Notes under the pieces: model-generated
The model's database searches: none
What the model saw: the letters and a program-made list of their open reading frames with translations, nothing else
What the model was told of the DNA's origin: nothing
Translations under genes and position numbers: made by a program
DNA from: Candidatus Nanoarchaeia archaeon
Lineage (GTDB): Archaea > Nanobdellota > Nanobdellia > Woesearchaeales > JANQNC01
Length of the DNA: 32,000 nucleotides
Direction of reading: 5' to 3'
Assembly (NCBI GenBank): GCA_028279745.1
Contig: JANQNC010000001.1
Location: 180,001-212,000, forward strand
In this document: positions 1 through 31,653 of the stretch, in pieces
Numbering within the stretch: position 1 is the first letter of the stretch
Layout of the letters: each line of letters begins with the position of its first letter

Positions 1-492
1 GGGGTAAGGCATATCAGACTTAGTAAGTTTATTTATTGTTCCCTTGGCACCTATTGTTGAAAGTGAGAATCTTGTATCTTCAACCAATTGTTCATGATCT
101 TTTATTGCTTTGATAACATTTCCACCATAAAGAGGTTCTCCAATGGCCATAAATGCATACTCAACAGACCCCTTTGAAACAACCTTCTTAAGGTTTTCAT
201 CTTGGGCTAATGTTAAAGAAATTTGTTTGTTGATCTCTTTAGAACTAAGAAAGCCATCAAAAGAAGTCATCATGTTCCTACACAAAAGACAGGAATAAAT
301 GCAACCCATCTGGGAGGATAGACAAAGAACATACTCTGGTTTATCATCTTCTCTTCCAGGAATATGCATAAACACACTTTCAATAGAACTTAACCCCTTT
401 GGTTTACCCCCAAGCGCAATTTTTTTGGGAACATCAAAAATATACTTAATTGTCGAATTGTCTTCAGAATAGCTTTTGGCTCTATACTTCAT
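1..492 (-). CDS. radical SAM enzyme, RlmN/Cfr-like; N-terminal 164 codons only, C-terminus lies beyond the window start
   Basis: Not in the ORF track because it runs off the edge. My translation from ATG 492-490: MKYRAKSYSEDNSTIKYIFDVPKKIALGGKPKGLSSIESVFMHIPGREDDKPEYVLCLSSQMGCIYSCLLCRN... It has a CX3CX2C cluster (GCIYSCLLC) preceded by SSQxGC, as in RlmN/Cfr. Confidence 0.55.
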   Translation of the reverse strand, partial: MKYRAKSYSEDNSTIKYIFDVPKKIALGGKPKGLSSIESVFMHIPGREDDKPEYVLCLSSQMGCIYSCLLCRNMMTSFDGFLSSKEINKQISLTLAQDENLKKVVSKGSVEYAFMAIGEPLYGGNVIKAIKDHEQLVEDTRFSLSTIGAKGTINKLTKSDMPYP

Positions 493-2567: not shown

Positions 2568-3449
2568 ATGCTAGAAAACGAAGACAAATGGATACAAGCA
2601 GGAAAGATAACAGGCGAAGCATTAGCTTTTGGAAAAACATTAGTAAAACCAGATGCTAAAATTCTAGATGTTGCAAACCAGATTGAAGAAAAGATAAGAG
2701 AGTTGGGAGGAGAGATAGCATTCCCAGTAAATATTTCTTTTAGTACAACTGCAGCACATGATACCCCCGCACCAGATGACGAAAGAGTTTTCGGAGAAGA
2801 GATAATCAAACTAGATTGTGGAGCGCATGTAGAGGGATGCATAGGCGACTCAGCATTAACAGTAGACTTAACCAAACAAAATGAAGATTTACTGAAAGCA
2901 TCACGAAATGCAGTGAATGCTGCTTTGAAAATTGCTATACCAGGCACAACACTAGGACAGATGGGAGAAGTGATAAATTCAGAGATAGAAGCGTTGGGGT
3001 TTAGACCTGTTGTAAATTTATCAGGACACTCACTAGATGAATATGATTTACATGCAGGAGCATCAATACCAAACTATGACAACAAAGATGATTCTGAATT
3101 AGAGGAAGATGACACAATCGCAATAGAACCATTCGCGACAACAGGGGCAGGAAAAGTTGTAGATGGATCAAACCCAAATATATTCTCTTTAACTGGAATC
3201 AAACCAGTAAGATCTGACTCATCAAGAATGTTCTTGAAACAAGCAGCACAATTCACAACATTACCATTTGCAAAAAGATGGATACAGATGCCTGCAATGA
3301 AAATAAACTTAGCAGTTGCTGAACTAAGTAATTTGGGAATACTTCATAGATATCCTCCACTGGTTGAAAAAGAAAAAGGTTTAGTAAGTCAAGCAGAACA
3401 TTCTGTTATTGTTAAGGATAAACCTATTATTACAACTAAAGTTGATTAG
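2568..3449 (+). CDS. map: methionine aminopeptidase, type 2 (archaeal)
   Basis: 293 aa. Pita-bread signature segments: FPVNISFSTTAAHDTP, KLDCGAHVEGCIGDSALTV, NLSGHSL, AIEPFATTG, QAEHSVIV. TATA tttaaata at 2540-2547 ends 21 nt before the ATG. Confidence 0.9.
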   Translation: MLENEDKWIQAGKITGEALAFGKTLVKPDAKILDVANQIEEKIRELGGEIAFPVNISFSTTAAHDTPAPDDERVFGEEIIKLDCGAHVEGCIGDSALTVDLTKQNEDLLKASRNAVNAALKIAIPGTTLGQMGEVINSEIEALGFRPVVNLSGHSLDEYDLHAGASIPNYDNKDDSELEEDDTIAIEPFATTGAGKVVDGSNPNIFSLTGIKPVRSDSSRMFLKQAAQFTTLPFAKRWIQMPAMKINLAVAELSNLGILHRYPPLVEKEKGLVSQAEHSVIVKDKPIITTKVD

Positions 3450-3637
3450 GGTTCTTTACATGAACAACATTGCCAAACTTTGCATAGCTTAGGTCTTCTG
3501 GGATAGATAGAGCATGAATTATCTTTAAGGAGTTTACACACTTTGTTGAACATAAGAGTTTTTGTGTGAAGTGAAATCCTAATCCTGTCTTCAAAAGACA
3601 GTTGTTTACAACATTCAGCACATCTTTTGCAAGGCAT
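3446..3637 (-). CDS. YkgJ-family CxxCxxCC cysteine-cluster (zinc/iron-chelating) small protein
   Basis: MPCKRCAECCKQ... plus C-terminal CSIYPRRPKLCKVWQC. The ORF track starts at 3721, but the internal ATG at 3637 lies about 21 nt downstream of an A/T TATA-like box (leaderless pattern). Confidence 0.6.
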   Translation of the reverse strand: MPCKRCAECCKQLSFEDRIRISLHTKTLMFNKVCKLLKDNSCSIYPRRPKLCKVWQCCSCKEP

Positions 3638-3732
3638 GATAAAAACTTCATGCTGATTAAATAAATATTTATTCTGGGATATACACGTATAATAAGATAA
3701 GTTTAAATATAAAACACGCATTTCACGCTTTT

Positions 3733-4310: not shown

Positions 4311-5750
4311 ATGAGCGAGGATAGTAAATCTGGAAATAGAAAAAAAACTGTTAAGAAAAAAGCAGCTAAAAACAAGACTGCAAAGAAGAAAACAGACAAG
4401 AAAAAGCTAAACATAGCTGGGACATTAGAAAGACAGATGAGAGCTGCTGAAACCAAAGGAGCTCCAAAATTTATTCTAGAAGAAGATGACAAACCAAAAG
4501 AAGCATTTGTTGAATTTCCAAAATATACCCCGCCTGAAAACAAGAATTGGATTGAAAGATTAAAAGAAAATGCGCTTGCTAAGATAGGCATAGGGATTGC
4601 TTCAGCAGCTCTTTTAATATCATCATACAACTTCTTCAACAAACCAAAAGAGATCATAAAAGAAAAAGAAACAATAAAACCAGTAACAGTACAAGTTACA
4701 AAACCTCAACCATTCAAGTTCAAAGGATTGGAGCCTGGCGTGGAGTTCTGGAAAAGGGTTTTCACTTTAGATACTTCTCTCTCATTAGTATATGATAGAA
4801 AAACATACTTTGTATACGGAACAGTTCCAGCAAAAGTAGAAAGCCTAGCAGCAGAAATTGTAAGAGTAAGATTAGAGGATTTGGGAAACAAAGTAATGAT
4901 AAGAAGAGATAGAAAACCTCCTGCAGAATACATCGAATCGCCAGACATAATCTTATCAACAAAGTGGGGGATGAAACAAGGAACAGAAGCAGCAATAAAA
5001 CGATCAAGAAAATACAAGTTCATAGAAGACACACTAAAAGCTTACAGCTTAGAACCCGATCTAAAATGGCTTCCAAGAGTAGAGAGTGAGTACAACAACA
5101 TAGCAAGATCAATCAAAGGTGCAGGAGGACTTTGGCAATTTATGCCTTCAACAGCAAGAATGTTTGGGTTGACAGTAAGAAAAGGAAAAGATCAAAGACT
5201 GTGGCCAAAAAAAGCAACATCCTCATTTGCACAATACATGAGAAGCATACTAAGAAAGTTCGGTTATGATTATGGGTTGGCACTAACAGGATATAACCAT
5301 GGAGAATACGGACTAAGACTAAAACTAGAATCAGTAAACGGCAGAGAGTTAAAAGATGTACTTCCACTTTTAGGATTTGCATCAGCAAATTTTTACGTGG
5401 AATTTTTAGCAGCAGCAGATGTTTGTAACAATTACAAAGTCTATGGATTAGATGCAGATCCAGAAAAAGAACCAACACCTGCTGTAGAATACATCACAAA
5501 AACAGAACCCGAAAGAATACCTTTAAGTCCTCTTGAAAAACACATCTTTCCATTCCAAGAAGCAGATGAAGAGCATACAAACATTCCTGAAGTAGGAGTT
5601 CCTGAAATATATGTTGTCAAAAGAGGGGATGCTTTGGAAAGAATAGCGCACGAGTATAATGTTAAACTAGCTGATCTGATGAAATTTAACAATCTAAAGA
5701 ATCATAACATAGACGTAAATGATACCTTAAGAATACCTCCAATGGACTAG
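4311..5750 (+). CDS. membrane-anchored lytic transglycosylase (SLT domain) with C-terminal LysM
   Basis: K-rich N-terminus and one TM segment (IGIGIASAALLISSYNFF). SLT catalytic motif ESEYNNIARSIKGAGGLWQFMPSTARMFGL. C-terminal LysM: YVVKRGDALERIAHEYNVKLADLMKFNNLKNHNIDVNDTLRIP. Confidence 0.75.
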   Translation: MSEDSKSGNRKKTVKKKAAKNKTAKKKTDKKKLNIAGTLERQMRAAETKGAPKFILEEDDKPKEAFVEFPKYTPPENKNWIERLKENALAKIGIGIASAALLISSYNFFNKPKEIIKEKETIKPVTVQVTKPQPFKFKGLEPGVEFWKRVFTLDTSLSLVYDRKTYFVYGTVPAKVESLAAEIVRVRLEDLGNKVMIRRDRKPPAEYIESPDIILSTKWGMKQGTEAAIKRSRKYKFIEDTLKAYSLEPDLKWLPRVESEYNNIARSIKGAGGLWQFMPSTARMFGLTVRKGKDQRLWPKKATSSFAQYMRSILRKFGYDYGLALTGYNHGEYGLRLKLESVNGRELKDVLPLLGFASANFYVEFLAAADVCNNYKVYGLDADPEKEPTPAVEYITKTEPERIPLSPLEKHIFPFQEADEEHTNIPEVGVPEIYVVKRGDALERIAHEYNVKLADLMKFNNLKNHNIDVNDTLRIPPMD

Positions 5751-6347: not shown

Positions 6348-6363
6348 TATATAAATGTTTCAG
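6348..6363 (-). promoter_or_regulatory. BRE/TATA promoter (leaderless) of 5747-6325
   Basis: The reverse complement reads ctgaaacaTTTATATA and ends 23 nt before ATG 6325. Confidence 0.55.
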
Positions 6364-7640: not shown

Positions 7641-8744
7641 TTACCTAATAACATTTACACCTTTAGCATTAAGAATCCTTTCAACAGAATCATCAATCCT
7701 TTCTTCTTTGATCTCTCCTTCAATAACTGCTTTCTCGACAACAGAAATCATGTGCTCAAGGTTATCCAGATTAATATCAAAATTAAGAATAACATCATTT
7801 TCTGCCTTAAACAAATCTATGTACATCTGGTCAACATCAGAATAATAATCACTTAAACCAAGCATCCTGATCTCATCAGTAATGATCAAACCAGTAAACT
7901 TATTTCTTAATTCCCCAATTAATTTCTCAGAAACTACTGAAGGCTTATTTTCTGAATTCGCATATCCATCCGCAATTATATGAGAGACCATTATTGCAGA
8001 AACTTCTCCTTCAATACTCTTCTCAAAAGGCATAAGGTCATTACGGGAGATTGGAGCATGAACAACATATTTATGAGGATCCCAAAGCATCAAAGTTTTA
8101 CCAGGATAGTGTTTGGAGGTTGCAACTATACCATTTTCCTGCAAACCATCTATGTAATACTTCGCTTTTTCAGAAATCTCTTCAGGAGAACCCTCAAAAC
8201 TTCTACACTTCCAGATCTTATCATCAAGATCTACTACTGGTGCAAAGTTTATACTGAAACCCATCTCCTTGAGAAGTTTTCCTTCATCATAGCCAACCTT
8301 AAACGCCTCTTCTTTTGTATTAATTTCATTCAATGCAGGAAACTCCTGAAAGTTTTCAAAAGGATTAGCGCAACCTTCTAAATCAACTGAAATAAACATA
8401 GGAATTATACTCCCATCTTGAAAGTTATCAATTGAATTCATGAATTCTTCTTTTGAAGTCTTAGCACCCATGTGGATGCCACCTATAAACAAATCCTGCA
8501 ACCTTTCTTTATTAGTTTCTTTATGATATGTTATTACCATCTGAGCAATTTTCTGTTTGAGTGTCAAAGAATCCAGATAAAGTGTGTTTGTGCTTTCTTC
8601 ATACTGAATATTGTCGGTATTTGCAGCTTCACCCGAGACACCATAGCTGTCAAAATTAAAAAATATAAGAATAATCACAACTACAACAAGAACTATCATC
8701 AATTTAACATCTTTAGACATATCCTCAGATAATTTTGACATCAT
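7641..8744 (-). CDS. glycoside hydrolase family 3 N-terminal-domain protein (beta-N-acetylhexosaminidase/NagZ-like), membrane-anchored
   Basis: N-terminal TM (LMIVLVVVVIILIF). GH3-like segments: FISVDLEG, NFAPVVDLDDKIWKCRSFEGSPEE, KHYPGKT, IMVSHI, GLIITDEIRMLG. Confidence 0.7.
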   Translation of the reverse strand: MMSKLSEDMSKDVKLMIVLVVVVIILIFFNFDSYGVSGEAANTDNIQYEESTNTLYLDSLTLKQKIAQMVITYHKETNKERLQDLFIGGIHMGAKTSKEEFMNSIDNFQDGSIIPMFISVDLEGCANPFENFQEFPALNEINTKEEAFKVGYDEGKLLKEMGFSINFAPVVDLDDKIWKCRSFEGSPEEISEKAKYYIDGLQENGIVATSKHYPGKTLMLWDPHKYVVHAPISRNDLMPFEKSIEGEVSAIMVSHIIADGYANSENKPSVVSEKLIGELRNKFTGLIITDEIRMLGLSDYYSDVDQMYIDLFKAENDVILNFDINLDNLEHMISVVEKAVIEGEIKEERIDDSVERILNAKGVNVIR

Positions 8745-12778: not shown

Positions 12779-12973
12779 ACAAGTTGTGTGATTAAATATG
12801 TTATATAATTCTTTTTAAAAAAACCCACCAGTTATCCGATACAGAAGGTTACATACAAAAAAAAGTTGTTTGTACAAAGGCAGGTTTATTTAAAAACAAA
12901 AACCTTTTTATACTAGTATTTTCAGTTTAAATACAAAAAGAGGTGATGGAAGATAGAGCTAGATAAAAGTAAC

Positions 12974-14092: not shown

Positions 14093-14208
14093 TTTCCCCT
14101 CCGTGCAAACTCTTCTTTATTCTTATCGACCTGAAAATTTAATAGAAATAACCCCATAAACCCCCAAGCCCGAAAAGAAACCTGAGAGTTTACTGTTTTG
14201 TCTTTACA

Positions 14209-14252
14209 GCTACAACTACCTTAAATGTAATTATTGTAAATGTAGTTGAAGC
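14209..14252. repeat. 11-bp inverted repeat (10/11 pairing) with 22-nt spacer
   Basis: gctacaactac (14209-14219) pairs with gtagttgaagc (14242-14252). The spacer contains a direct taaatgta duplication. Confidence 0.6.
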
Positions 14253-14280
14253 CATTAAAGAATCATATTGGTAAAACTAG

Positions 14281-14294
14281 TATTTAAACATTTC
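14281..14294 (-). promoter_or_regulatory. orphan BRE/TATA-like element pointing into the 14.1-14.26 kb gap
   Basis: The reverse complement reads gaaatgTTTAAATA, a 14-mer identical to the 14778-14791 element. It overlaps the stop codon of 14294-14614. Confidence 0.4.
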
Positions 14295-14614
14295 TAGGTT
14301 TTTTTGGATTTTTCTTGCTGTTTTCTCCAATAGGCTATCTCAGAATCAAAAGGTTGTTCCCACTTGCCTTTTTCTTTCTCTGCTAAAAGAACATCGCAAA
14401 GAAAAGTGAGTTCTTCACCATCAATCTTAAGAAATCGTTCTACATTTTTCTTTAGGCTTTCTTCACCCTCACTAAGCCAGTTCCTTATGAGCTTGTATGA
14501 AACAGAAACATGATTGATATTGCACAAACTGTAATCATTACCTATAACCATAAATCTGCTAGTAGACTCTCTTGAAGGTAGCTTTTGTCCATAACTTAAG
14601 TATGCCATTTTCAA
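14294..14614 (-). CDS. hypothetical protein (106 aa; the ATG at 14608 may be the true start)
   Basis: The ORF follows the zinc-ribbon mini-gene after 15 nt on the same strand. No family recognised. Confidence 0.5.
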   Translation of the reverse strand: MKMAYLSYGQKLPSRESTSRFMVIGNDYSLCNINHVSVSYKLIRNWLSEGEESLKKNVERFLKIDGEELTFLCDVLLAEKEKGKWEQPFDSEIAYWRKQQEKSKKT

Positions 14615-14629
14615 ATTGGTAGTAAAGAA

Positions 14630-14755
14630 TTACTCTCCGAGCTTTCTAGCTCTAGCACGTTCGACAGCCAGCTTTTTTCTGCAGTCAACACACCATTTTC
14701 TCATCTTGCTGAACGTCTGTATCTCTTCATCACATCGTTGACATTTGACTACCAT
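14630..14755 (-). CDS. zinc-ribbon mini-protein (41 aa)
   Basis: Below the ORF-track cutoff. My translation: MVVKCQRCDEEIQTFSKMRKWCVDCRKKLAVERARARKLGE (CxxC-13-CxxC plus a basic helix). BRE/TATA rc(14778-14792) ends 23 nt before the ATG, the leaderless pattern. Confidence 0.5.
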   Translation of the reverse strand: MVVKCQRCDEEIQTFSKMRKWCVDCRKKLAVERARARKLGE

Positions 14756-14777
14756 TATCGAAGGGAATGAAGGCTTC

Positions 14778-14792
14778 TATTTAAACATTTCG
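14778..14792 (-). promoter_or_regulatory. BRE/TATA promoter (leaderless) of the zinc-ribbon mini-gene
   Basis: The reverse complement reads cgaaatgTTTAAATA and ends 23 nt before ATG 14755. Confidence 0.55.
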
Positions 14793-14821
14793 TAATTTAC
14801 TACTTTTAAGTAAGAACAAAA

Positions 14822-14836
14822 CGAAACATTTATATA
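14822..14836 (+). promoter_or_regulatory. BRE/TATA promoter of the GGDEF gene
   Basis: cgaaacaTTTATATA. The 16-mer cgaaacatttatatac is identical to 15764-15779. It lies back-to-back with the minus-strand promoter at 14778-14792. Confidence 0.55.
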
Positions 14837-14882
14837 CTAGTATCTATTACCACTTACTAATGACAAATAATTGGTATTGAAA

Positions 14883-15710
14883 ATGGTCAGAGCAGACAGC
14901 TTAAACAAAACTGAGATAGGATATGCCTTTAAGGCGCAGAATAAGCTAAAAATAGCTCCAAATTTGCCAAATAAAGTGTCAGCAGACGTTCTAGACAGTT
15001 ACACCAAACAAGCCCAATCAGTCATCTCTGAAGCCGAAAGAGAGATGGGCGTTAAAGTAGCAGACTACCTAAAAAACCACGTTCAGGAGCAAATAGGTGT
15101 ATTAGCTCACATGGTCGAAAAAGAAGGTAAAATCGACAGCTTAGAGAGTAAAGTTGGTGATTTAAATGCCGAACTTGGAATAGATCCACTAACTCAGATA
15201 CCAAACTACAAAGCACTTAGAGGAAAGCTCGACAGAGAAGTTGAGAGAGTACAAAGAGGCTATTGGAGAACAAATAACGCAGAGGAAGCAAAAAAAGTAC
15301 TGCCCACCTCAGTAATTATGATCGATGCAGATGACTTCAAAAAATATAACGACAGCTATGGGCACCAAGCAGGAAACGATGCACTGAAAAAGATTGCAGA
15401 AATAATGAAAAAAGAAGTAAGAAAGATTGATCTTGTCGGAAGATATGGTGGAGAAGAGTTTGTTGCTGTACTGACGGAAGCAAACAAAGAACAAGCTTAC
15501 AATGTAGCAGAAAGAATAAGAGAATCAGCAGAAAATTCTGGGCTAAAATACCCCATATCATTATGTCTTGGGATAGCAGATACATCAGATGTTACGTTTG
15601 GAGAAAACACGGTTGACGAGCTTATCGAAAAAGCAGATAAAGCTATGTATCATTCAAAAAATAGCGGAAAAAATCAAACTACAATCTATAACGGCCGCAT
15701 TGATGAATAG
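14883..15710 (+). CDS. GGDEF-domain diguanylate cyclase-family protein with N-terminal coiled coil
   Basis: DPLTQIPNYKAL linker, VIMIDADDFKKYNDSYGHQAGNDALK, I-site RKID five residues before RYGGEEF, SLCLGIAD, KADKAMYHSKNSGKNQ. The ORF track starts at TTG 14871. ATG 14883 is preferred. Confidence 0.85.
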   Translation: MVRADSLNKTEIGYAFKAQNKLKIAPNLPNKVSADVLDSYTKQAQSVISEAEREMGVKVADYLKNHVQEQIGVLAHMVEKEGKIDSLESKVGDLNAELGIDPLTQIPNYKALRGKLDREVERVQRGYWRTNNAEEAKKVLPTSVIMIDADDFKKYNDSYGHQAGNDALKKIAEIMKKEVRKIDLVGRYGGEEFVAVLTEANKEQAYNVAERIRESAENSGLKYPISLCLGIADTSDVTFGENTVDELIEKADKAMYHSKNSGKNQTTIYNGRIDE

Positions 15711-15763
15711 CCATAAATTCTAATAGTTTAAGTTAAATTATTCCTTAATAGTAGTTAAAACTG

Positions 15764-15778
15764 CGAAACATTTATATA
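15764..15778 (+). promoter_or_regulatory. BRE/TATA promoter of the 183-aa GGDEF-like gene
   Basis: cgaaacaTTTATATA. The TATA ends 30 nt before ATG 15808. Confidence 0.55.
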
Positions 15779-15807
15779 CCTATTCCAGTATACTATCTCA
15801 TCGGGGA

Positions 15808-16359
15808 ATGAATAACATGGGGGAAAACAATACAGCAAAAGATATTGGCAATACATTAGAAACCGTATCAACACAGTCCATACACCAAAAAGTGCAAGAA
15901 TCTGAGTACATAATGGGTATTGACGTATCGATGATAGTCGAGAAGCATTCTTCAAAAGATATTGGTTCAACAATATCTAAAATTATTGACATCACAGATT
16001 TCTTAGAAAGAGACAAACTAGTCTTTATATCTCACGGAGACACCAATCCAACATATAGAAATCAAGATCTAAATGCAACACAAAAAGTGGTTGCATACTT
16101 CAACATGGAAGGTTCATACCAAGGAGTAGAAGCAAAAGCTCACGAGATAAAACAGACCATCAACGATAAATACTTTTTACAATCAGGAGATGAAAGGATA
16201 CCAACAAGAATAGGTATAGTTGCAGTAAAGCCAACAGAAGAAGAAAGAAAAGTGGCTCCAAATTCTCAATATCCTTTAGTTATCCACACAGTAGACCACA
16301 TGTTAATAAGCTCAGTTGAGAAAGACAGAGTAGAAATACATTCATCAACTGAAAAATAG
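15808..16359 (+). CDS. hypothetical protein, possibly a degenerate GGDEF/palm-like domain
   Basis: 183-aa ORF with its own BRE/TATA. By eye it is collinear with the neighbouring GGDEF domain: IMGIDVS vs IMIDADD, KLVFISHGDTN vs DLVGRYGGEEF, PTRIGIVAV vs ISLCLGIAD, TVDHMLISSVEKDRVEI vs KADKAMYHSKNSGKNQT. The domain assignment is inference. Confidence 0.45.
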   Translation: MNNMGENNTAKDIGNTLETVSTQSIHQKVQESEYIMGIDVSMIVEKHSSKDIGSTISKIIDITDFLERDKLVFISHGDTNPTYRNQDLNATQKVVAYFNMEGSYQGVEAKAHEIKQTINDKYFLQSGDERIPTRIGIVAVKPTEEERKVAPNSQYPLVIHTVDHMLISSVEKDRVEIHSSTEK

Positions 16360-16360
16360 C

Positions 16361-16376
16361 AAAACATTTATAAATA
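16361..16376 (+). promoter_or_regulatory. BRE/TATA promoter of the coiled-coil operon
   Basis: aaaacaTTTATAAAta, followed by the purine-rich SD-like aagaaggtggtggag. Confidence 0.5.
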
Positions 16377-16418
16377 CAAAGAGGCCTAAATTCTCAGATC
16401 TTAACTAAAAAAAAGAAG

Positions 16419-17033
16419 GTGGTGGAGAACATGGTGGATGATTACGAACTAGTGGCTAGTAAAAGAATTTCTAAATTAAGAGATGATCTAGACAGATTAA
16501 AAGAAAACAGACCAGGCACAAATACGATGGAAGGTTTACAAGACTCAATCGAGAAACTGAGCCAAAACTTATCCAACGTACTATCCGTATTTGAAGAAGC
16601 AGCAGAAGAGATGAAACTAGAGGACAGAGAGACAGAAGTGATAGCGCAGAAAATAGACCCTCTAATGGACAAGCTAGATGCTGTAATGGAACAAAACAAA
16701 AAAATAGCACAAGGAGTTGTTGCTGTTGCAGATATGATAAATGAGATGAAAGCAAATAAACCAATGGCAGCGCCAAAACCAAAAATGATGCCAGAAGCAC
16801 CAAAGCCTGAAGTGCCTCCTATGGCACCACCAAACTTCAAGATGCCTGAGACAACAACAATGGGTGTGCCGCCACCACCTGGAATGGCACCACCGCCAAT
16901 ACCAGAACAACCTTTACCAAATAATCCTCCAATGCCGCCGCAAGGAGCTCCACCGATGCCTCCAATAGGTGAACCGCCAAAAGAGGAAAAGAAAGAAAGC
17001 AAAGGTTTTTTAGGAATTAAGTTTACCAAATAA
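16419..17033 (+). CDS. coiled-coil protein with Met/Pro-rich C-terminal half
   Basis: N-terminal ~110 aa has heptad-like helices. In residues 115-187 I count about 31 Pro and 9 Met of 73 (PPPPGMAPPPIP, PPMPPQGAPPMPP). It ends with the basic tail KGFLGIKFTK. ATG 16431 is an alternative start. Confidence 0.6.
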   Translation: MVENMVDDYELVASKRISKLRDDLDRLKENRPGTNTMEGLQDSIEKLSQNLSNVLSVFEEAAEEMKLEDRETEVIAQKIDPLMDKLDAVMEQNKKIAQGVVAVADMINEMKANKPMAAPKPKMMPEAPKPEVPPMAPPNFKMPETTTMGVPPPPGMAPPPIPEQPLPNNPPMPPQGAPPMPPIGEPPKEEKKESKGFLGIKFTK

Positions 17034-17035
17034 AA

Positions 17036-17821
17036 ATGATTGATACAGAAAAGCACGTTTCTACACCACGTATGAAACGATTCTTAAAACACTTAGGTAA
17101 AGCATCAGAAAAAAGACATGAAGAGAAAAAAATAGATGCAAGGAGGCAATTTGTAGAGAAGATAGATTCATTATCTGATGAACCTTCATCACTACATGAA
17201 GATTTCTTAAAAGCAGATGCAAAAACAATAGAATCGCAAATCAAGAAAGCGTTAGATATAGAAAAAAGATTATTTGAAAGACAGCAAAAAGATGAAGCTG
17301 AACTCTCACAAACACAACATGTTATAGATAATGAACACGAAAGTATTGAGAGGTTGAGAGATGATCTAAGACATGTACAACACCAAGTTGTATCAACACA
17401 ACAAGCAGACGAACAGATGATACATCAGAATGATGATAGAATAAGTAGAATAACTGAAATGATGGCTCAGTTAAGCGCTAAAGTAGATGAGTTATCAGGA
17501 ATAAAATCAAGCGCAGAAGATAGGTTAAGAGAGATGGAAGAGAAAGTTAGCCAAACTGTTGCAAGAGAAGCAGAAACTGAAGCAAAACTAGCTGAAAAGA
17601 AAGAACCGACAGTTTTCTTAGTTAAAGAGAAGGACGTTCCTGTAAAAGTCAAGCCTAAAAAGGTTGAGAAAGAAGATAAGGTGAGTAAACGAGAGTTGAA
17701 AACGTATCTGAAAGGATTAGAAGCACACCATAAAAAGATGGTCAAAGCAGGATTCCATTCTAAAGGTGATTTAGGCAAGTTAAAAAGAAAGATAACTTCA
17801 TTGAAGAAGAAGTTGAAGTGA
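17036..17821 (+). CDS. coiled-coil protein (261 aa) with K-rich C-terminus
   Basis: Starts 2 nt after the upstream stop. Long E/Q/K/R-rich helical stretch. No family recognised. Confidence 0.6.
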   Translation: MIDTEKHVSTPRMKRFLKHLGKASEKRHEEKKIDARRQFVEKIDSLSDEPSSLHEDFLKADAKTIESQIKKALDIEKRLFERQQKDEAELSQTQHVIDNEHESIERLRDDLRHVQHQVVSTQQADEQMIHQNDDRISRITEMMAQLSAKVDELSGIKSSAEDRLREMEEKVSQTVAREAETEAKLAEKKEPTVFLVKEKDVPVKVKPKKVEKEDKVSKRELKTYLKGLEAHHKKMVKAGFHSKGDLGKLKRKITSLKKKLK

Positions 17822-18126
17822 TTTATATGAAAGAATTAACAGCTTACTTACTGCAATTTCATAGCAAGAAAAAGAAACTAAACGTAATCTATGCAGCACC
17901 AACAGGAACAGACAGAGACAAGTTATTTGCACAACTAGCAACATGTCATGCAGTTCTAAAAGAAACAACAAACCCAACAGAAATGAGTATGGAGGAAGTA
18001 TCAGGACTTGTTCAAAAAGTAATACTTACTGATTATGACTTCAAACAGCTAACAGGGATCAAGACCAATTTGACAAATTATAAAGGAATAATCAATCCAG
18101 CTTACACTTATCAGTTTAAGTTTTAG
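17818..18126 (+). CDS. hypothetical protein (102 aa)
   Basis: GTG 17818 overlaps the upstream stop. ATG 17827 is an alternative start. No family recognised. Confidence 0.5.
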   Translation: MIYMKELTAYLLQFHSKKKKLNVIYAAPTGTDRDKLFAQLATCHAVLKETTNPTEMSMEEVSGLVQKVILTDYDFKQLTGIKTNLTNYKGIINPAYTYQFKF

Positions 18127-18703: not shown

Positions 18704-18717
18704 CAAACATTTATATA
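18704..18717 (+). promoter_or_regulatory. BRE/TATA promoter of the HAD-IIB-like gene
   Basis: caaacaTTTATATA. SD gaggggtg lies before TTG 18755. Confidence 0.5.
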
Positions 18718-19545: not shown

Positions 19546-19944
19546 TTAAATCTTAAGAGAATAAATCTTTCCAGTTCTTTTGTAAAGTTTAACAACCTTA
19601 ACTAAATTGTAAATTAGCACAGAAAGCATAACAACAAACACAGGGAAAACTAATGGATTAAAATTGTAAGCACCTGTTAAGTCACCATGCAATAACCTTG
19701 ACATCCCTCTAGTCATGCCGCATGCAGGACAGTTGCAATTGTTGAATAACCCTCCTTCAGGACAAACACCTCCAAACATCAAAGGTAAAATAAAATGTTT
19801 GAAAACACATTTGAAAGGATAATACTTCAAAGTCTCTGTGGGAAGTGAAGCTAAAATTGCAAAGATTAAACTTAAATTAAAAAATTTGAAAAAAGGAGAA
19901 TTAAAAGAAATAAAATCAAAAAAGATTTGTTTTAGTCTACCCAT
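19546..19944 (-). CDS. DUF2752-family membrane protein
   Basis: CPACGMTRGMSRLLHGDLTGAYNFNPLVF motif plus flanking TM segments. The start overlaps the TM2 gene end by 13 nt. Confidence 0.7.
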   Translation of the reverse strand: MGRLKQIFFDFISFNSPFFKFFNLSLIFAILASLPTETLKYYPFKCVFKHFILPLMFGGVCPEGGLFNNCNCPACGMTRGMSRLLHGDLTGAYNFNPLVFPVFVVMLSVLIYNLVKVVKLYKRTGKIYSLKI

Positions 19945-20135
19945 TGTATTCCTTCAAACTTGTGTTTTGTAGCAATCAAGATTATATCAATAATCCACCA
20001 GATACCACACCCACCTAATGTCAATAGTTTTAGAATACCTAGGCCAATATGTCCCATGATAAATCTGTCAACTCCAAGCTGTCCAAAAATGATAGACATT
20101 ACAAGAGTTAAAACCCAACTTACTTTTTTAACCAT
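19932..20135 (-). CDS. TM2-domain membrane protein
   Basis: IIFGQLGVDRFIMGHIGLGILKLLTLGGCGIWWIIDIILI. SD ggaggtac upstream. Confidence 0.75.
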   Translation of the reverse strand: MVKKVSWVLTLVMSIIFGQLGVDRFIMGHIGLGILKLLTLGGCGIWWIIDIILIATKHKFEGIQWVD

Positions 20136-20187
20136 TTTAGTACCTCCAAATTGAATAATTATATATTTGAGCTTTTATAAAACTTTC

Positions 20188-29279: not shown

Positions 29280-29759
29280 ATGGTAACAGTAAAAACATCA
29301 GTAAGAAAAGGACTAGGATTTGGGTTAACATCTGGAATAATCACCACACTAGGACTTATTGTAGGATTAAACTCCAGCACACACTCACGAAACGTAATTC
29401 TAGGAGGAATATTGGTCATAGCGATAGCAGATGCAATGTCTGATGCATTAGGGATACACGTAGCAGAAGAGGCAGAATTAAAACACTCAACAAAAACAAT
29501 CTGGGAATCAACAATTGCAACATTCCTATCAAAATTCATATTTGCACTAACATTTGTGATACCTGTGTTATTGCTGCCATTAAGCACAGCGATACTGGTG
29601 AGCGTAATATGGGGTTTGCTGCTAATATCTGTGTTCAGCTATTATATTGCAAGCAAACAAGATGCAAACCCATTCAAAGCAGTTTTTGAGCATTTGTTGA
29701 TAGCAGGCATTGTAATTATCGTGACAAACTACATTGGAAATTGGGCTGCACTGATCTAA
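29280..29759 (+). CDS. VIT1/CCC1-like small membrane protein
   Basis: GLGFGLTSGIITTLGLIVGL, AIADAMSDALGIHVAEE, and three further TM segments. Family call is tentative. Confidence 0.5.
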   Translation: MVTVKTSVRKGLGFGLTSGIITTLGLIVGLNSSTHSRNVILGGILVIAIADAMSDALGIHVAEEAELKHSTKTIWESTIATFLSKFIFALTFVIPVLLLPLSTAILVSVIWGLLLISVFSYYIASKQDANPFKAVFEHLLIAGIVIIVTNYIGNWAALI

Positions 29760-31594
29760 TCAGTTCTAGAAAGATATTTTTTTACTTTTTCAGCTAAAAT
29801 AGAGAGGGGCATGAAAGGTTTCTGAATAAAAGCTGACGCACCATCATCTAATATCTGTTTAACTTTATCGTCCATCTCATAACCACTTGTTACGATCACA
29901 TTCATATTAGGATCCGCTTCTTTAATATTATAGAAAAGCTCTTCTCCACCTCCATTAGGCATTATAAGATCAGTCACAACACCATCAATATCGCCTTCTT
30001 TAAACTTTTCAAATCCTTCACTTCCTCCTGAAGCTAACACAACATCATAACCCACCGTCTCAAGGTAATCTTTAGCCAGGTCTCTTATAAACTCTTCATC
30101 ATCAACAAAAAGGATTGTGCCTTTGCCTGATCTTGCTTCAACAACATTTTCTAGTTTAGGCTTTTCTCTTTCAACTGCAGGAAAATATATATCAAAAGTT
30201 GATCCCACACACATATAAGTAGTTACATCTATGTACCCCTTATGGTTTTCAACAATCCCCCAAACATTAGAAAGACCCAGTCCTGTGCCTTTCATGCTGT
30301 CCATATCTTTAGTGGTGAATAAAGGATCAAAAATCTTTTTTAGATTTGTGTCAGATATGCCCGTTCCACTATCAGCAATAGACAACATAACATATTCACC
30401 TTCAGGAATCTTATGATACTTTGTGACCATCGTTCTTCTAAGAGTCTTATCTTTAACATTCACCCATATCTTTCCTCCTTCAGGCATAGCATCTCTCGCG
30501 TTTATTGCAATGTTTTGAATAACCTGCAACATCTGGGTGCTATCAGCATAAATATTCTTGGTAGAATCAAGACTGCTCTCAATCTCATAGTTTACAGTGG
30601 ATGAAAAACCTTTTTTAGTTACGTCTATAGCTTCTTTAGTTATAGTATTCAAGTTTATGTTCTGAGGGTTATACTTTCCTTTTCTTGCAAAACCTAAAAT
30701 CTTCCCCACAAGATCTTTGGCCCTACCCACACTTTGAAGAATATTTCCTGCCTGCTTTTCACACGATTCGGCAGAGAATCCGGTTTTAGTCTTGCCCCAG
30801 ATCTGCATACGAATCAGATCTGCATAACCTGATATTGATGCTAACATGTTATTGAAATCATGAGCTATGCCCCCCGCCAAGTACCCTATAGATTCCATCT
30901 TTTGAGCTTGAATGATCTGCTCTTGAAGACTTGCATTCTCTTCTTCCCTATGCCTTCTATCAATTGCAAGAGCGATATTGTTAGCTAAGATCTCATCTAC
31001 CAATGCTACCTCGCTTTTGTTAAATGAATTATATTTCTTCTTTGAGATAAGCAAAGCACCGATCCTCTCCTTCTTATGATTAAACAAAGGAGAGAGAAGC
31101 ATCTCACCAAACAAGTTTCCTGACATATACTTTAACAGAGGCTTCAAGAATCTTGAAGGAACATCCTTTTCTTGTAAGATCAGGTCAGATAAAACCTCAT
31201 CTGTTATTCTTGTTGACCTGTCCAAACTGTAAAATATGTCCGCTGCTTTCTTATTCTCATTAAAATCAAACTTGACAGATTTCATCGCAGTCTTTATCAA
31301 GTTTGGCCAAGGTGTTGAAGCTGCCTTAACATATAAACAATTTTCATCTTTGTCTAATATTCCTATGTTAGAACCATACAGATTAAGTCCTTTTAGAATT
31401 ATTTCTGCAACATCATCTAAATTTGTTTCTGGAGTATTAAGTGCTATTGAGACATCACTAGCAATCTTAAAATAACCGACCTTGCTCTGAAGCGCTTCTA
31501 TCTCTAGATTGATCTTATCCCTATTCTGATCTATCAAGAATTTTTTTACATCTTCTGGAACGTCTTCACGCTTCAGTATGTCGTCTAGTTCCAT
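29756..31594 (-). CDS. hybrid sensor histidine kinase (GAF-like sensor, HisKA, HATPase_c, C-terminal receiver)
   Basis: H-box ESIGYLAGGIAHDFNNML. N-box NIAINARDAMPEGG. G-boxes DSGTGI and GTGLGLS. REC: ILFVDDEEF...VVTDLIMP...VTSGY...IQKPF. Confidence 0.9.
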   Translation of the reverse strand: MELDDILKREDVPEDVKKFLIDQNRDKINLEIEALQSKVGYFKIASDVSIALNTPETNLDDVAEIILKGLNLYGSNIGILDKDENCLYVKAASTPWPNLIKTAMKSVKFDFNENKKAADIFYSLDRSTRITDEVLSDLILQEKDVPSRFLKPLLKYMSGNLFGEMLLSPLFNHKKERIGALLISKKKYNSFNKSEVALVDEILANNIALAIDRRHREEENASLQEQIIQAQKMESIGYLAGGIAHDFNNMLASISGYADLIRMQIWGKTKTGFSAESCEKQAGNILQSVGRAKDLVGKILGFARKGKYNPQNINLNTITKEAIDVTKKGFSSTVNYEIESSLDSTKNIYADSTQMLQVIQNIAINARDAMPEGGKIWVNVKDKTLRRTMVTKYHKIPEGEYVMLSIADSGTGISDTNLKKIFDPLFTTKDMDSMKGTGLGLSNVWGIVENHKGYIDVTTYMCVGSTFDIYFPAVEREKPKLENVVEARSGKGTILFVDDEEFIRDLAKDYLETVGYDVVLASGGSEGFEKFKEGDIDGVVTDLIMPNGGGEELFYNIKEADPNMNVIVTSGYEMDDKVKQILDDGASAFIQKPFMPLSILAEKVKKYLSRTD

Positions 31595-31637: not shown

Positions 31638-31653
31638 TTTATAAATGTTTGCG
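31638..31653 (-). promoter_or_regulatory. BRE/TATA promoter of the hybrid histidine kinase
   Basis: The reverse complement reads cgcaaacaTTTATAAA, 44 nt upstream of ATG 31594. Confidence 0.45.

What the first reader, a model, noticed from the sequence alone, without database searches (positions are those of the whole stretch)
14294..18126. GGDEF-cyclase-centred gene cluster in an archaeal chromosome (candidate archaeal cyclic-dinucleotide module)
14883-15710 encodes a coiled-coil N-domain plus a complete GGDEF domain (DPLTQIPNY linker, IMIDADDFKKYND, RYGGEEF, SLCLGIAD, KADKAMYHSKNSGKN). S3Ae, Bud32, the thermosome and BRE/TATA/leaderless promoters in the same window make the host an archaeon. 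GGDEF/c-di-GMP signalling is generally considered rare to absent in archaea.

I recognise no EAL, HD-GYP or PilZ domain anywhere in the 32 kb, so product turnover and receptor are open questions.

The cyclase sits head-to-head with a zinc-ribbon mini-gene plus a 106-aa gene. Four unassignable genes follow on the same strand: a GGDEF-like remnant, a coiled-coil Met/Pro-rich protein, a 261-aa coiled-coil protein and a 102-aa protein. None resembles a described effector family that I can name.
Basis: partly seen in the sequence, partly recalled or inferred. Interest (0 to 1): 0.75.

Follow-up and report, generated by a model that had tools for sequence, protein, structure and literature searches.

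The report
Lone GGDEF cyclase in an archaeon
A small DPANN-like archaeal chromosome carries one natively integrated, bacterial-type GGDEF cyclic-dinucleotide synthase gene, a family whose presence in archaea has long been doubted, but the surrounding "cluster" is unrelated lineage-specific genes, not a signalling module.

Summary
The GGDEF gene at 14883-15710 is real (Pfam PF00990 E=1.3e-35; AlphaFold pLDDT 90; RMSD 1.6-2.0 Å to WspR/GcbC). It lies in a genuinely archaeal chromosome (S3Ae, Bud32-type kinase, thermosome; the identical protein sits on a 1.3-Mb contig). It carries an exact copy of the host BRE/TATA box and has host-like codon usage, so it is neither contamination nor a chimera.

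Its nearest relatives (at most 48-51% identity, domain only) are bacterial wherever context could be read, which points to horizontal acquisition. The protein is a helical stalk plus GGDEF. It has the Mg-binding Asp, GGEEF and an RxxD inhibition site. The guanine-specifying Asp (PleD D344 / GacA S348) is Asn here, so the product is uncertain.

The "cluster" reading fails:
- Each gene has its own promoter.
- The "GGDEF-like remnant" is an ORFan (no homologue in 1.84 billion representatives; hhalign probability 0.4%).
- The 106-aa gene is also an ORFan.
- The 204/261-aa coiled-coil pair is conserved in two relatives, but the closer one (77% identity) has LonB and other genes upstream, not the cyclase.

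No EAL, HD-GYP, PilZ or riboswitch occurs in the 32 kb, and the rest of the genome was unavailable. Verdict: a well-supported archaeal GGDEF gene with moderate interest, not a new system.

The parts
14824..14843 (+). Host-type BRE/TATA promoter box of the GGDEF gene (AAACATTTATATACTAGTAT)
   Evidence: Exact copy of the window's 13-mer consensus. It is 18/20 identical to the promoter of the housekeeping PGI gene at 12900-12919 (family D9).
14883..15710 (+). GGDEF cyclase gene (275 aa), identical to database protein P0001
   Evidence: PF00990 E=1.3e-35; TIGR00254 2.4e-40; PDB GGDEF hits down to 4.5e-25; AF2 pLDDT 90.1; Foldseek RMSD 1.6-2.0 Å to WspR, GcbC and 3IGN.
14883..15179 (+). N-terminal helical region (residues 1-99) ending in a long stalk helix (57-98); no sensor domain detected
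   Evidence: AF2 secondary structure H9-21, H34-55, H57-98. No Pfam or PHROG family. Structural matches to the stalk+GGDEF proteins GCN4-WspR (3i5c), SiaD (7e6g) and Caulobacter DgcB (6ttr).
15180..15710 (+). GGDEF catalytic domain (residues 100-275)
   Evidence: Columns invariant across 30 homologues are kept: D148, D150, K153, N156, D157, G160, H161, G164, R180, D183, R187, G189, G190, E192, K259.
15375..15377 (+). Codon AAC = Asn165 at the base-specificity position (PleD D344 / GacA S348)
   Evidence: The HMMER alignment puts GHQAGN opposite GHQAGD, GHNTGD and GHLAGD, and opposite GHLVGS of the Hypr enzyme 6d9m. Among 102 homologues the position is D in 97, N in 3 and S in 2. The role of the position is from PMC6456294 and PMC7288161.
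15420..15431 (+). RxxD allosteric inhibition (I-) site, R180-K-I-D183, five residues before GGEEF
   Evidence: Read from the sequence. R180 and D183 are invariant in the alignment.
15447..15461 (+). GGEEF active-site motif (residues 189-193)
   Evidence: Read from the sequence; aligned to GGEEF/GGDEF of solved cyclases.
14630..14755 (-). Adjacent, not shown to belong: 41-aa CxxC-13-CxxC zinc-ribbon mini-gene, divergent from the cyclase
   Evidence: Only sub-threshold zinc-ribbon Pfam hits; no homologue search was possible.
14294..14614 (-). Adjacent, not shown to belong: 104/106-aa ORFan downstream of the zinc-ribbon gene
   Evidence: It finds only itself in 5.8 billion proteins; no Pfam, NCBIfam, PADLOC or PHROG hit.
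15808..16359 (+). Adjacent, not shown to belong: 180/183-aa ORFan with its own promoter box at 15766-15778; not GGDEF-like
   Evidence: self only in 1.84 billion representatives; hhalign probability 0.4%; AF2 pLDDT 43.
16419..18126 (+). Separate three-gene unit with its own promoter box (16362-16374): p204 (coiled coil plus Pro/Met-rich tail, likely start 16431), p261 (coiled coil) and p102. The three genes abut or overlap.
   Evidence: The p204-p261 adjacency is conserved in L024 (p261 49% identity). p204 is 77% identical in L025, where LonB and two unrelated ORFs lie upstream instead of the cyclase. p102 has no family or viral hit.

Best explanation
A single bacterial-type GGDEF gene was acquired horizontally by a small-genome, DPANN-like archaeon and domesticated. 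It is driven by a standard host BRE/TATA promoter and has host-like codon usage.

The protein has no sensor domain. An N-terminal helical stalk is inferred to form a parallel dimer that brings two GGDEF half-sites together. Each half-site binds one Mg-NTP, and the pair is condensed into a cyclic dinucleotide, most likely c-di-GMP. Product binding at the intact RxxD I-site is inferred to cap output. Control would therefore be mainly transcriptional, or through an unknown stalk-binding partner as in SiaD/SiaC.

The flanking genes are not part of the system. They are lineage-specific ORFans plus an independently conserved coiled-coil gene pair.

Shown: gene identity, fold, motifs, native chromosomal context, and lack of conserved linkage. 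Inferred: dimerisation, activity, product, and feedback inhibition.
For: Family, fold and motifs.

Archaeal context on both sides: S3Ae 3 kb upstream and thermosome 6.4 kb downstream. The identical protein lies on a 1,301,350-bp contig.

Native integration: exact host promoter 13-mer, also found before orf192 and MPGP, with near-exact copies before HisRS and HK-REC. The promoter is 18/20 identical to the PGI promoter. Synonymous-codon z = -1.1 and GC3 0.32 against 0.286±0.035. No plasmid or phage similarity and no bounding repeats.

Bacterial origin: the best hits are 41-51% identical over the domain only. Every neighbour whose context was read is bacterial: P0002 next to LacI, P0007 with RuvABC/YebC, P0031 with fab genes and L32p, P0016 with RF-1/FtsEX. 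The one confirmed archaeal homologue (P0063, L001, uS10 archaeal type) ranks 33rd, so it is not a sister.

Not a cluster: separate promoter boxes at 14824, 15766 and 16362. p183 and p106 are ORFans. L025 has a p204 homologue at 77% identity with a conserved promoter, but LonB and unrelated ORFs upstream. PADLOC and PHROG gave nothing meaningful.
Against: - The guanine-recognising Asp is Asn165. D344 of PleD is reported as essential for activity (PMC7288161), so activity or GTP specificity may be altered.
- No phosphodiesterase, receptor or riboswitch occurs in the 32 kb, and the other ~1.27 Mb could not be examined.
- c-di-GMP has never been detected in an archaeon (PMC10249747).
- The domain phylogeny is unresolved (best sister group 35% bootstrap), so the donor is unknown.
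- Absence of the gene from relatives rests on fragmentary metagenome contigs.
- It is a single-genome observation, and Asn (AAC) is one transition away from Asp (GAC).
Confidence: 0.55

Rival explanations
1. Same enzyme, different product. The Asp-to-Asn change at the Watson-Crick-face position relaxes or switches base specificity. The archaeal enzyme would then make cGAMP, c-di-AMP or a mixture, as a new specificity class alongside the Ser/Thr Hypr GGDEFs.
For: Asn165 aligns with Ser348 of the Hypr enzyme 6d9m and with Asp of canonical cyclases. This residue sets GTP versus ATP acceptance (PMC6456294). Asn is rare (3 of 102) and recurs in a bacterial REC-GGDEF with an almost identical motif, DDFKKYNDSFGHQAGN (P0007/P0010). 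That argues against a random error. Asn has the same length as Asp, so the Asn/GGEEF pair should satisfy the 'Goldilocks' distance rule (inference).
Against: No Asn variant has been characterised in the papers I could read. Natural Hypr enzymes use Ser/Thr with GGDE[F/Y] exclusively, whereas this one has GGEEF. The conserved RxxD I-site is a c-di-GMP-binding feature. Asn can still accept guanine N1-H/N2-H hydrogen bonds.
Confidence: 0.2
2. Catalytically impaired GGDEF acting as a nucleotide sensor or receptor. It would bind c-di-GMP at the I-site, or GTP at the half active site, for example to sense a bacterial partner's messenger.
For: D344 is reported as essential. The I-site is intact. No turnover enzymes are nearby. 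The host has peptidoglycan-degrading enzymes that suggest contact with bacteria.
Against: Every other catalytic residue is conserved, including GGEEF, both Mg-binding acids and the phosphate-binding Lys. Degenerate receptor GGDEFs usually lose the GGDEF motif itself. There is no output domain.
Confidence: 0.12
3. One reading: the cyclase and its neighbours (zinc ribbon, p106, p183, p204, p261, p102) form one functional cyclic-dinucleotide module with novel effectors.
For: Physical proximity. All are unassigned, soluble proteins. p183 shares the exact promoter 13-mer with the cyclase.
Against: The same promoter 13-mer is used by housekeeping genes. p183 and p106 have no homologues at all, so nothing is conserved to define a module. 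p204-p261 is conserved without an adjacent cyclase in L025. The other archaeal GGDEF locus (L001/L002) has none of these neighbours. There is no PADLOC hit.
Confidence: 0.1
4. Artefact: bacterial contamination or a chimeric join in a metagenome assembly, the default suspicion for archaeal c-di-GMP genes.
For: Literature precedent (Galperin 2018; Galperin & Chou; ComFB paper).
Against: Archaeal marker genes lie on both sides within one 1.3-Mb contig. The gene has the exact archaeal host promoter box and PGI-like promoter. Codon usage and GC are within the host range. No identical or near-identical bacterial sequence exists in 5.8 billion proteins.
Confidence: 0.03

Closest known systems
Canonical diguanylate cyclase GGDEF domains (PleD 1W25, WspR 3BRE/3I5B, GcbC 5EUH)
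   Same: Same Pfam family and fold (RMSD 1.6-2.0 Å). Shares GGEEF, the Mg-binding Asp, Asn at the sugar-face position, the phosphate-binding Lys, and the RxxD I-site with PleD-like spacing.
   Different: Asn replaces the guanine-binding Asp344. The second phosphate-binding residue is Lys rather than Arg (GKN versus GRN). There is no REC or other sensor domain. The host is an archaeon.
Stalk-plus-GGDEF cyclases: SiaD (7E6G), Caulobacter DgcB (6TTR), GCN4-WspR (3I5C)
   Same: A short protein with a long helix running straight into the DxLT start of the GGDEF domain. The NCBIfam SiaD model aligns over residues 87-265 (5.9e-34, far below the equivalog cut-off). Foldseek TM is 0.79-0.81 to 3I5C.
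   Different: No SiaA/B/C-type partners (PP2C phosphatase, kinase, SiaC) are nearby. The extra N-terminal helices 9-55 have no homologues.
Hypr GGDEF (GacA, 5VS9/6D9M)
   Same: Non-Asp residue at the base-specificity position; aligned residue-for-residue.
   Different: Asn rather than Ser/Thr, and GGEEF rather than the obligatory GGDEF/Y. No cGAMP riboswitch or any other Rfam family in the window.
Previously listed archaeal GGDEF genes: Methanocella arvoryzae RCIX2274 (CAJ37382) and the MAG-encoded Nanoarchaeia protein HJX49897.1 (P0063)
   Same: A GGDEF domain encoded on archaeal DNA. P0063 is likewise a ~273-aa stand-alone GGDEF on a contig with archaeal uS10.
   Different: RCIX2274 is a multidomain REC-PAS-PocR-GGDEF-HD-GYP protein. 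P0063 is only 38-41% identical, not a sister, has Asp at the specificity position, and sits in a different context next to T4SS-like genes.

Membership tests
GGDEF domain family (PF00990 / TIGR00254) | Profile-HMM score above the curated threshold | tested here: met
   123 bits against a 23.8 cut-off; 138 bits against 37.4.
GGDEF domain family (PF00990 / TIGR00254) | Ferredoxin-like alpha/beta cyclase fold | tested here: met
   AF2 pLDDT 90.1. Foldseek E about 1e-15, TM 0.88-0.89 and RMSD 1.6-2.0 Å to isolated GGDEF domains.
Catalytically active diguanylate cyclase | GG(D/E)EF motif and Mg-binding Asp (PleD D327, E370) | tested here: met
   MIDAD (D148) and RYGGEEF (residues 189-193), aligned to solved cyclases.
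Catalytically active diguanylate cyclase | Guanine recognition by Asn335 and Asp344 (PleD numbering) | tested here: not met
   N156 is present, but the D344 position is Asn165. D344 is reported as essential. The consequence is unknown.
Catalytically active diguanylate cyclase | Phosphate-binding Lys442 / Arg446 | tested here: inconclusive
   K259 is conserved. The Arg position is Lys263 (SGKN), as in the solved active enzyme 6d9m (QGKN).
Catalytically active diguanylate cyclase | Dimerisation that juxtaposes two half-sites | tested here: inconclusive
   A monomer model shows a 42-residue stalk helix like WspR, SiaD and DgcB. No multimer prediction or experiment was done.
Catalytically active diguanylate cyclase | Conversion of 2 GTP to c-di-GMP | not testable with these tools
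   Needs an enzyme assay with LC-MS.
Feedback-inhibited DGC (I-site) | RxxD five residues upstream of GG(D/E)EF | tested here: met
   R180-K-I-D183 followed by LVGRY-GGEEF. R180 and D183 are invariant in 30 homologues.
Hypr GGDEF (cGAMP synthase) | Ser/Thr at position 348 combined with GGDE[F/Y] | tested here: not met
   Asn165 with GGEEF.
Complete c-di-GMP signalling system | EAL or HD-GYP phosphodiesterase encoded with the cyclase | tested here: not met
   None in any ORF of the 32-kb window.
Complete c-di-GMP signalling system | Known receptor (PilZ, MshEN, degenerate GGDEF/EAL, riboswitch) | tested here: not met
   No Pfam hit in the window (same calls). No Rfam family at E<=1. p183 is not GGDEF-like. 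The whole genome was not testable.
SiaABCD-type module | Adjacent SiaA (PP2C), SiaB (kinase) and SiaC partners | tested here: not met
   The neighbours have no such domains. The SiaD equivalog score is 117.6 against a 290 cut-off.
Conserved gene cluster / operon around the cyclase | Co-transcription and conserved synteny in relatives | tested here: not met
   Separate promoter boxes. L025 has p204 without the cyclase or p183. L001/L002 and 16 PGI-anchored DPANN/CPR loci lack the neighbours. p183 and p106 have no homologues.
Anti-phage defence system (PADLOC) | Hit to a defence-system protein model | tested here: not met
   Only coiled-coil noise at E>1e-4.

The most novel reading that the evidence does not exclude
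This is a functional GGDEF-type cyclic-dinucleotide synthase operating in a DPANN archaeon. Its rare Asn specificity residue would give it a product spectrum different from both canonical (Asp) and Hypr (Ser/Thr) enzymes. The messenger would be read by non-bacterial receptors, or exported to manipulate a bacterial partner's c-di-GMP circuitry. The same chromosome encodes SLT/LysM and GH3 murein-degrading enzymes. That would be the first cyclic-di-GMP-type signalling in Archaea and a third specificity class of GGDEF enzymes.
Probability: 0.1. Interest if true: 0.8.

Novelty: new member of a known kind. Interest (0 to 1): 0.42.

Why it matters
Reviews and censuses by the c-di-GMP field state that GGDEF, EAL and HD-GYP are essentially bacterial. 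They treat the archaeal MAG instances as possible contamination that "need to be confirmed".

This locus is a clean case for confirmation. The gene lies inside a 1.3-Mb archaeal contig, between ribosomal-protein and thermosome genes, under an exact host BRE/TATA box, and with host codon usage. A second, independent DPANN case (L001) was also verified as archaeal.

Together these show that DPANN archaea do acquire and keep bacterial cyclic-dinucleotide cyclases. They also give a concrete, small (275 aa), sensor-less enzyme to express, so that one can ask whether any archaeon makes c-di-GMP. The Asn at the base-specificity position is a testable side question about how GGDEF enzymes choose nucleotides.

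It does not reveal a new system. No receptor, turnover enzyme or conserved partner was found.

Tried and rejected
- Retrieving the source contig to census the whole genome: the identical protein P0001 is indexed, but the look-up of encoding contigs returned nothing. The genome is not among the GTDB representatives scanned through the adjacent PGI gene.
- Synteny via PGI-anchored loci: 16 DPANN/CPR loci, at most 43% PGI identity, with no cyclase or neighbour homologues. They are too distant to be informative.
- 'GGDEF-like remnant': rejected by BLASTP, hhalign and an exhaustive HMMER search. The AF2 single-sequence model was too poor (pLDDT 43) to fold-search.
- Defence-island idea: PADLOC gave only coiled-coil noise.
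- Viral or mobile origin: PHROGs, two viral-contig scans, plasmid and phage blastn, and a repeat search were all negative.
- P0002 as a possible orthologue in a relative: rejected, because its neighbour is a LacI-type bacterial regulator.
- Domain phylogeny: NJ with 100 bootstraps was unresolved, and a first attempt timed out.
- Looking up Hallberg 2016 for residue statistics at the specificity position: the paper is not held.
- Riboswitch or ncRNA in the 200-bp gap at 14093-14293 and elsewhere: nothing in Rfam.

Full report
**1. What is at the coordinates**

It scores 123 bits on Pfam GGDEF (E=1.3e-35, cut-off 23.8) and 138 bits on TIGR00254. It matches 45 solved GGDEF chains (best 4.5e-25; PleD 1.2e-19).

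An AlphaFold model built on 30 homologues has mean pLDDT 90.1. It superposes on isolated GGDEF domains of WspR, GcbC and 3IGN with RMSD 1.6-2.0 Å and TM 0.88-0.89. The observation of a GGDEF gene is therefore solid.

**2. Is the host archaeal, and is the gene native?**

The window encodes S3Ae, a RIO/Bud32-type kinase, a thermosome subunit (800 bits on the archaeal models), an archaeal-type PGI, a membrane H+-PPase and a PolX. The identical protein (P0001) is recorded on a 1,301,350-bp contig. The adjacent PGI is most similar (42-43%) to Woesearchaeota and other DPANN MAGs. The window also holds an SLT+LysM lytic transglycosylase and a GH3 enzyme. From these I infer a small-genome, DPANN-like archaeon.

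Several results argue that the gene is native:
- GC content is even across the locus.
- The gene's synonymous-codon score (z = -1.1) and GC3 (0.32 against 0.286±0.035) lie inside the spread of the window's 34 genes.
- The 13-mer AAACATTTATATA occurs 13 times at up to 2 mismatches, against 4.5 expected (0 of 100 shuffles reached 13). It sits 20-50 nt upstream of gene starts.
- Exact copies precede the GGDEF gene, p183, MPGP and orf192. Near-exact copies precede p204, HisRS, orf337 and the histidine kinase.
- The cyclase promoter is 18/20 identical to the PGI promoter.
- There is no similarity to plasmids or phages, and no bounding repeats.

Contamination or a chimeric join, the field's default explanation for archaeal c-di-GMP genes, is therefore very unlikely here.

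**3. Origin**

In 5.8 billion proteins the next-best hit is 48% identical over half the query, that is, the GGDEF domain only. Every close hit whose contig I could read is bacterial:
- P0002 lies next to a LacI-type regulator.
- P0007 lies with RuvABC/YebC and a histidine kinase.
- P0031 lies with fatty-acid synthesis genes and L32p.
- P0016 lies with RF-1 and FtsEX.
- P0069 and P0041 lie in multi-GGDEF neighbourhoods.

One hit, P0063 (NCBI: Nanoarchaeia), sits on a 173-kb contig whose uS10 scores 141 bits on the archaeal/eukaryotic model against 73 on the bacterial one. It is a second genuine DPANN GGDEF. However, it ranks only 33rd in similarity (38%) and is not a sister in an NJ tree. The tree is poorly resolved (at most 35% bootstrap), so the donor is unknown. 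The pattern fits independent transfers from bacteria.

**4. Anatomy and likely mechanism**

Residues 1-99 are helical (H9-21, H34-55, H57-98). The last helix runs straight into the DPLT start of the domain, as in WspR, SiaD, Caulobacter DgcB and the GCN4-WspR fusion. No sensor domain is detectable.

The catalytic domain keeps the residues that are invariant in 30 homologues: D148/D150 (Mg), K153, N156, G189-G190-E191-E192-F193, and K259. It also keeps the RxxD inhibition site (R180-K-I-D183) with PleD-like spacing.

The one departure is Asn165 (codon AAC, 15375-15377) in GHQAGN. Canonical enzymes have Asp here (PleD D344) and Hypr enzymes have Ser (GacA S348); the alignment to 6d9m is direct. 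This residue contacts the Watson-Crick face of the base and sets GTP versus ATP acceptance (PMC6456294). D344 is listed as essential (PMC7288161).

Among 102 homologues the position is Asp in 97, Ser in 2 and Asn in 3. The three Asn cases are the query and two versions of a bacterial REC-GGDEF with the nearly identical motif DDFKKYNDSFGHQAGN.

I therefore propose a stalk-dimerised, sensor-less, product-inhibited cyclase that most likely makes c-di-GMP. Altered specificity is the main rival, and a non-catalytic sensor role is a lesser one. Dimerisation, activity, product and feedback are inferences.

**5. The 'cluster'**

- The genes have separate promoter boxes at 14824, 15766 and 16362.
- p183, the 'GGDEF-like remnant', finds only itself among 1.84 billion representatives. 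It gives hhalign probability 0.4% against a GGDEF profile and models poorly.
- p106 finds only itself.
- The 41-aa gene is a CxxC...CxxC zinc ribbon with only sub-threshold hits.
- p204, p261 and p102 abut or overlap one another and look like one unit.
- p261 has a single homologue (49% identity, full length) on a 951-bp contig. There it is preceded by the Pro-rich...FLGIRFTK end of a p204 homologue, so the pair is real and conserved.
- A metagenome scan with p204 found L025, which is 77% identical and has the promoter conserved. Its 2.5 kb upstream encodes an intein-containing LonB and two unrelated small ORFs. There is no cyclase and no p183.
- The other archaeal GGDEF locus has none of these neighbours.
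- PADLOC, PHROGs and NCBIfam gave only coiled-coil noise.

The cyclase is thus a solitary gene among lineage-specific genes, not the centre of a conserved module.

**6. Rest of the pathway**

No EAL, HD-GYP or PilZ domain was found in any ORF of the window, including leftover small and edge ORFs. No Rfam family was found at E<=1. The other ~1.27 Mb could not be retrieved, so whether a pathway exists remains open.

**7. Comparison with what is known, and novelty**

The field's position is that c-di-GMP has not been detected in archaea and its enzymes are 'almost exclusively' bacterial (PMC10249747). The only GGDEF from a finished archaeal genome is the Methanocella arvoryzae multidomain ORF, and MAG cases may be contamination (PMC5847659; Galperin & Chou preprint; PMC10086821; PMC12448109).

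This locus is a well-controlled positive case and a convenient enzyme to test. It is still a new member of a known family, not a new kind of system. I score interest at 0.42. The most novel reading not excluded is a functional archaeal cyclic-dinucleotide signal with a new Asn specificity class or a host-directed role. I give it about 10% probability.

Noticed in passing
window 4311-5750 (+) and 7641-8744 (-): An SLT lytic transglycosylase fused to LysM, and a GH3 (NagZ-like) glycosidase. Both are peptidoglycan-degrading enzymes, here in an archaeal chromosome, which suggests interaction with bacterial cell walls.
   Followed up: no
window 29756-31594 (-), promoter box 31638-31650: A hybrid histidine kinase (HisKA-HATPase_c-REC, 612 aa) under a near-exact host promoter box. 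It is a second bacterial-type signalling gene in this small archaeal genome.
   Followed up: partly
L001 1-9725 (Nanoarchaeia contig CAZBPV010000001.1): The other confirmed DPANN GGDEF gene lies beside a VirB4/TraC-like ATPase, TrbC/T4SS-pilin genes, two N6/N4 DNA methyltransferases and an HATPase_c_3 protein. This may be an integrated conjugative element that delivered the gene.
   Followed up: no
L025 1737..1 (-): An archaeal LonB protease gene is interrupted by an intein with a homing-endonuclease-like insert directly after the P-loop (GEPGTGK|C...VHN|S).
   Followed up: no
window 12900-12919, 14824-14843, 15766-15778, 16362-16374, 18705-18717, 6348-6360 (-): AAACATTTATATA is a very sharply conserved BRE/TATA consensus for this organism. 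It is useful for annotating transcription units and true start codons.
   Followed up: yes
window 16419-17821; L024; L025: p204 (coiled coil, Pro/Met-rich linker, conserved C-terminal FLGI[KR]FTK) and p261 (highly charged coiled coil with conserved termini) form a gene pair conserved in two uncultured relatives. Its function is unknown. JGI's label 'mechanosensitive channel' for P0126 looks spurious, because no hydrophobic segment was found in its homologue p261.
   Followed up: partly
L019 10001-10870 (P0007): A bacterial REC-GGDEF directly downstream of a HAMP histidine kinase shares the rare Asn at the base-specificity position and the motif DDFKKYNDSFGHQAGN. It is a second natural Asn/GGEEF enzyme, suitable for the same biochemical test.
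   Followed up: partly
window 19935-20174 (-), 3449-3730 (-), 1-492 (-): Small or edge ORFs missed by the 90-aa cut: a TM2-domain membrane protein, a CxxCxxCC metal-binding protein, and a partial radical-SAM-like gene at the window edge.
   Followed up: no
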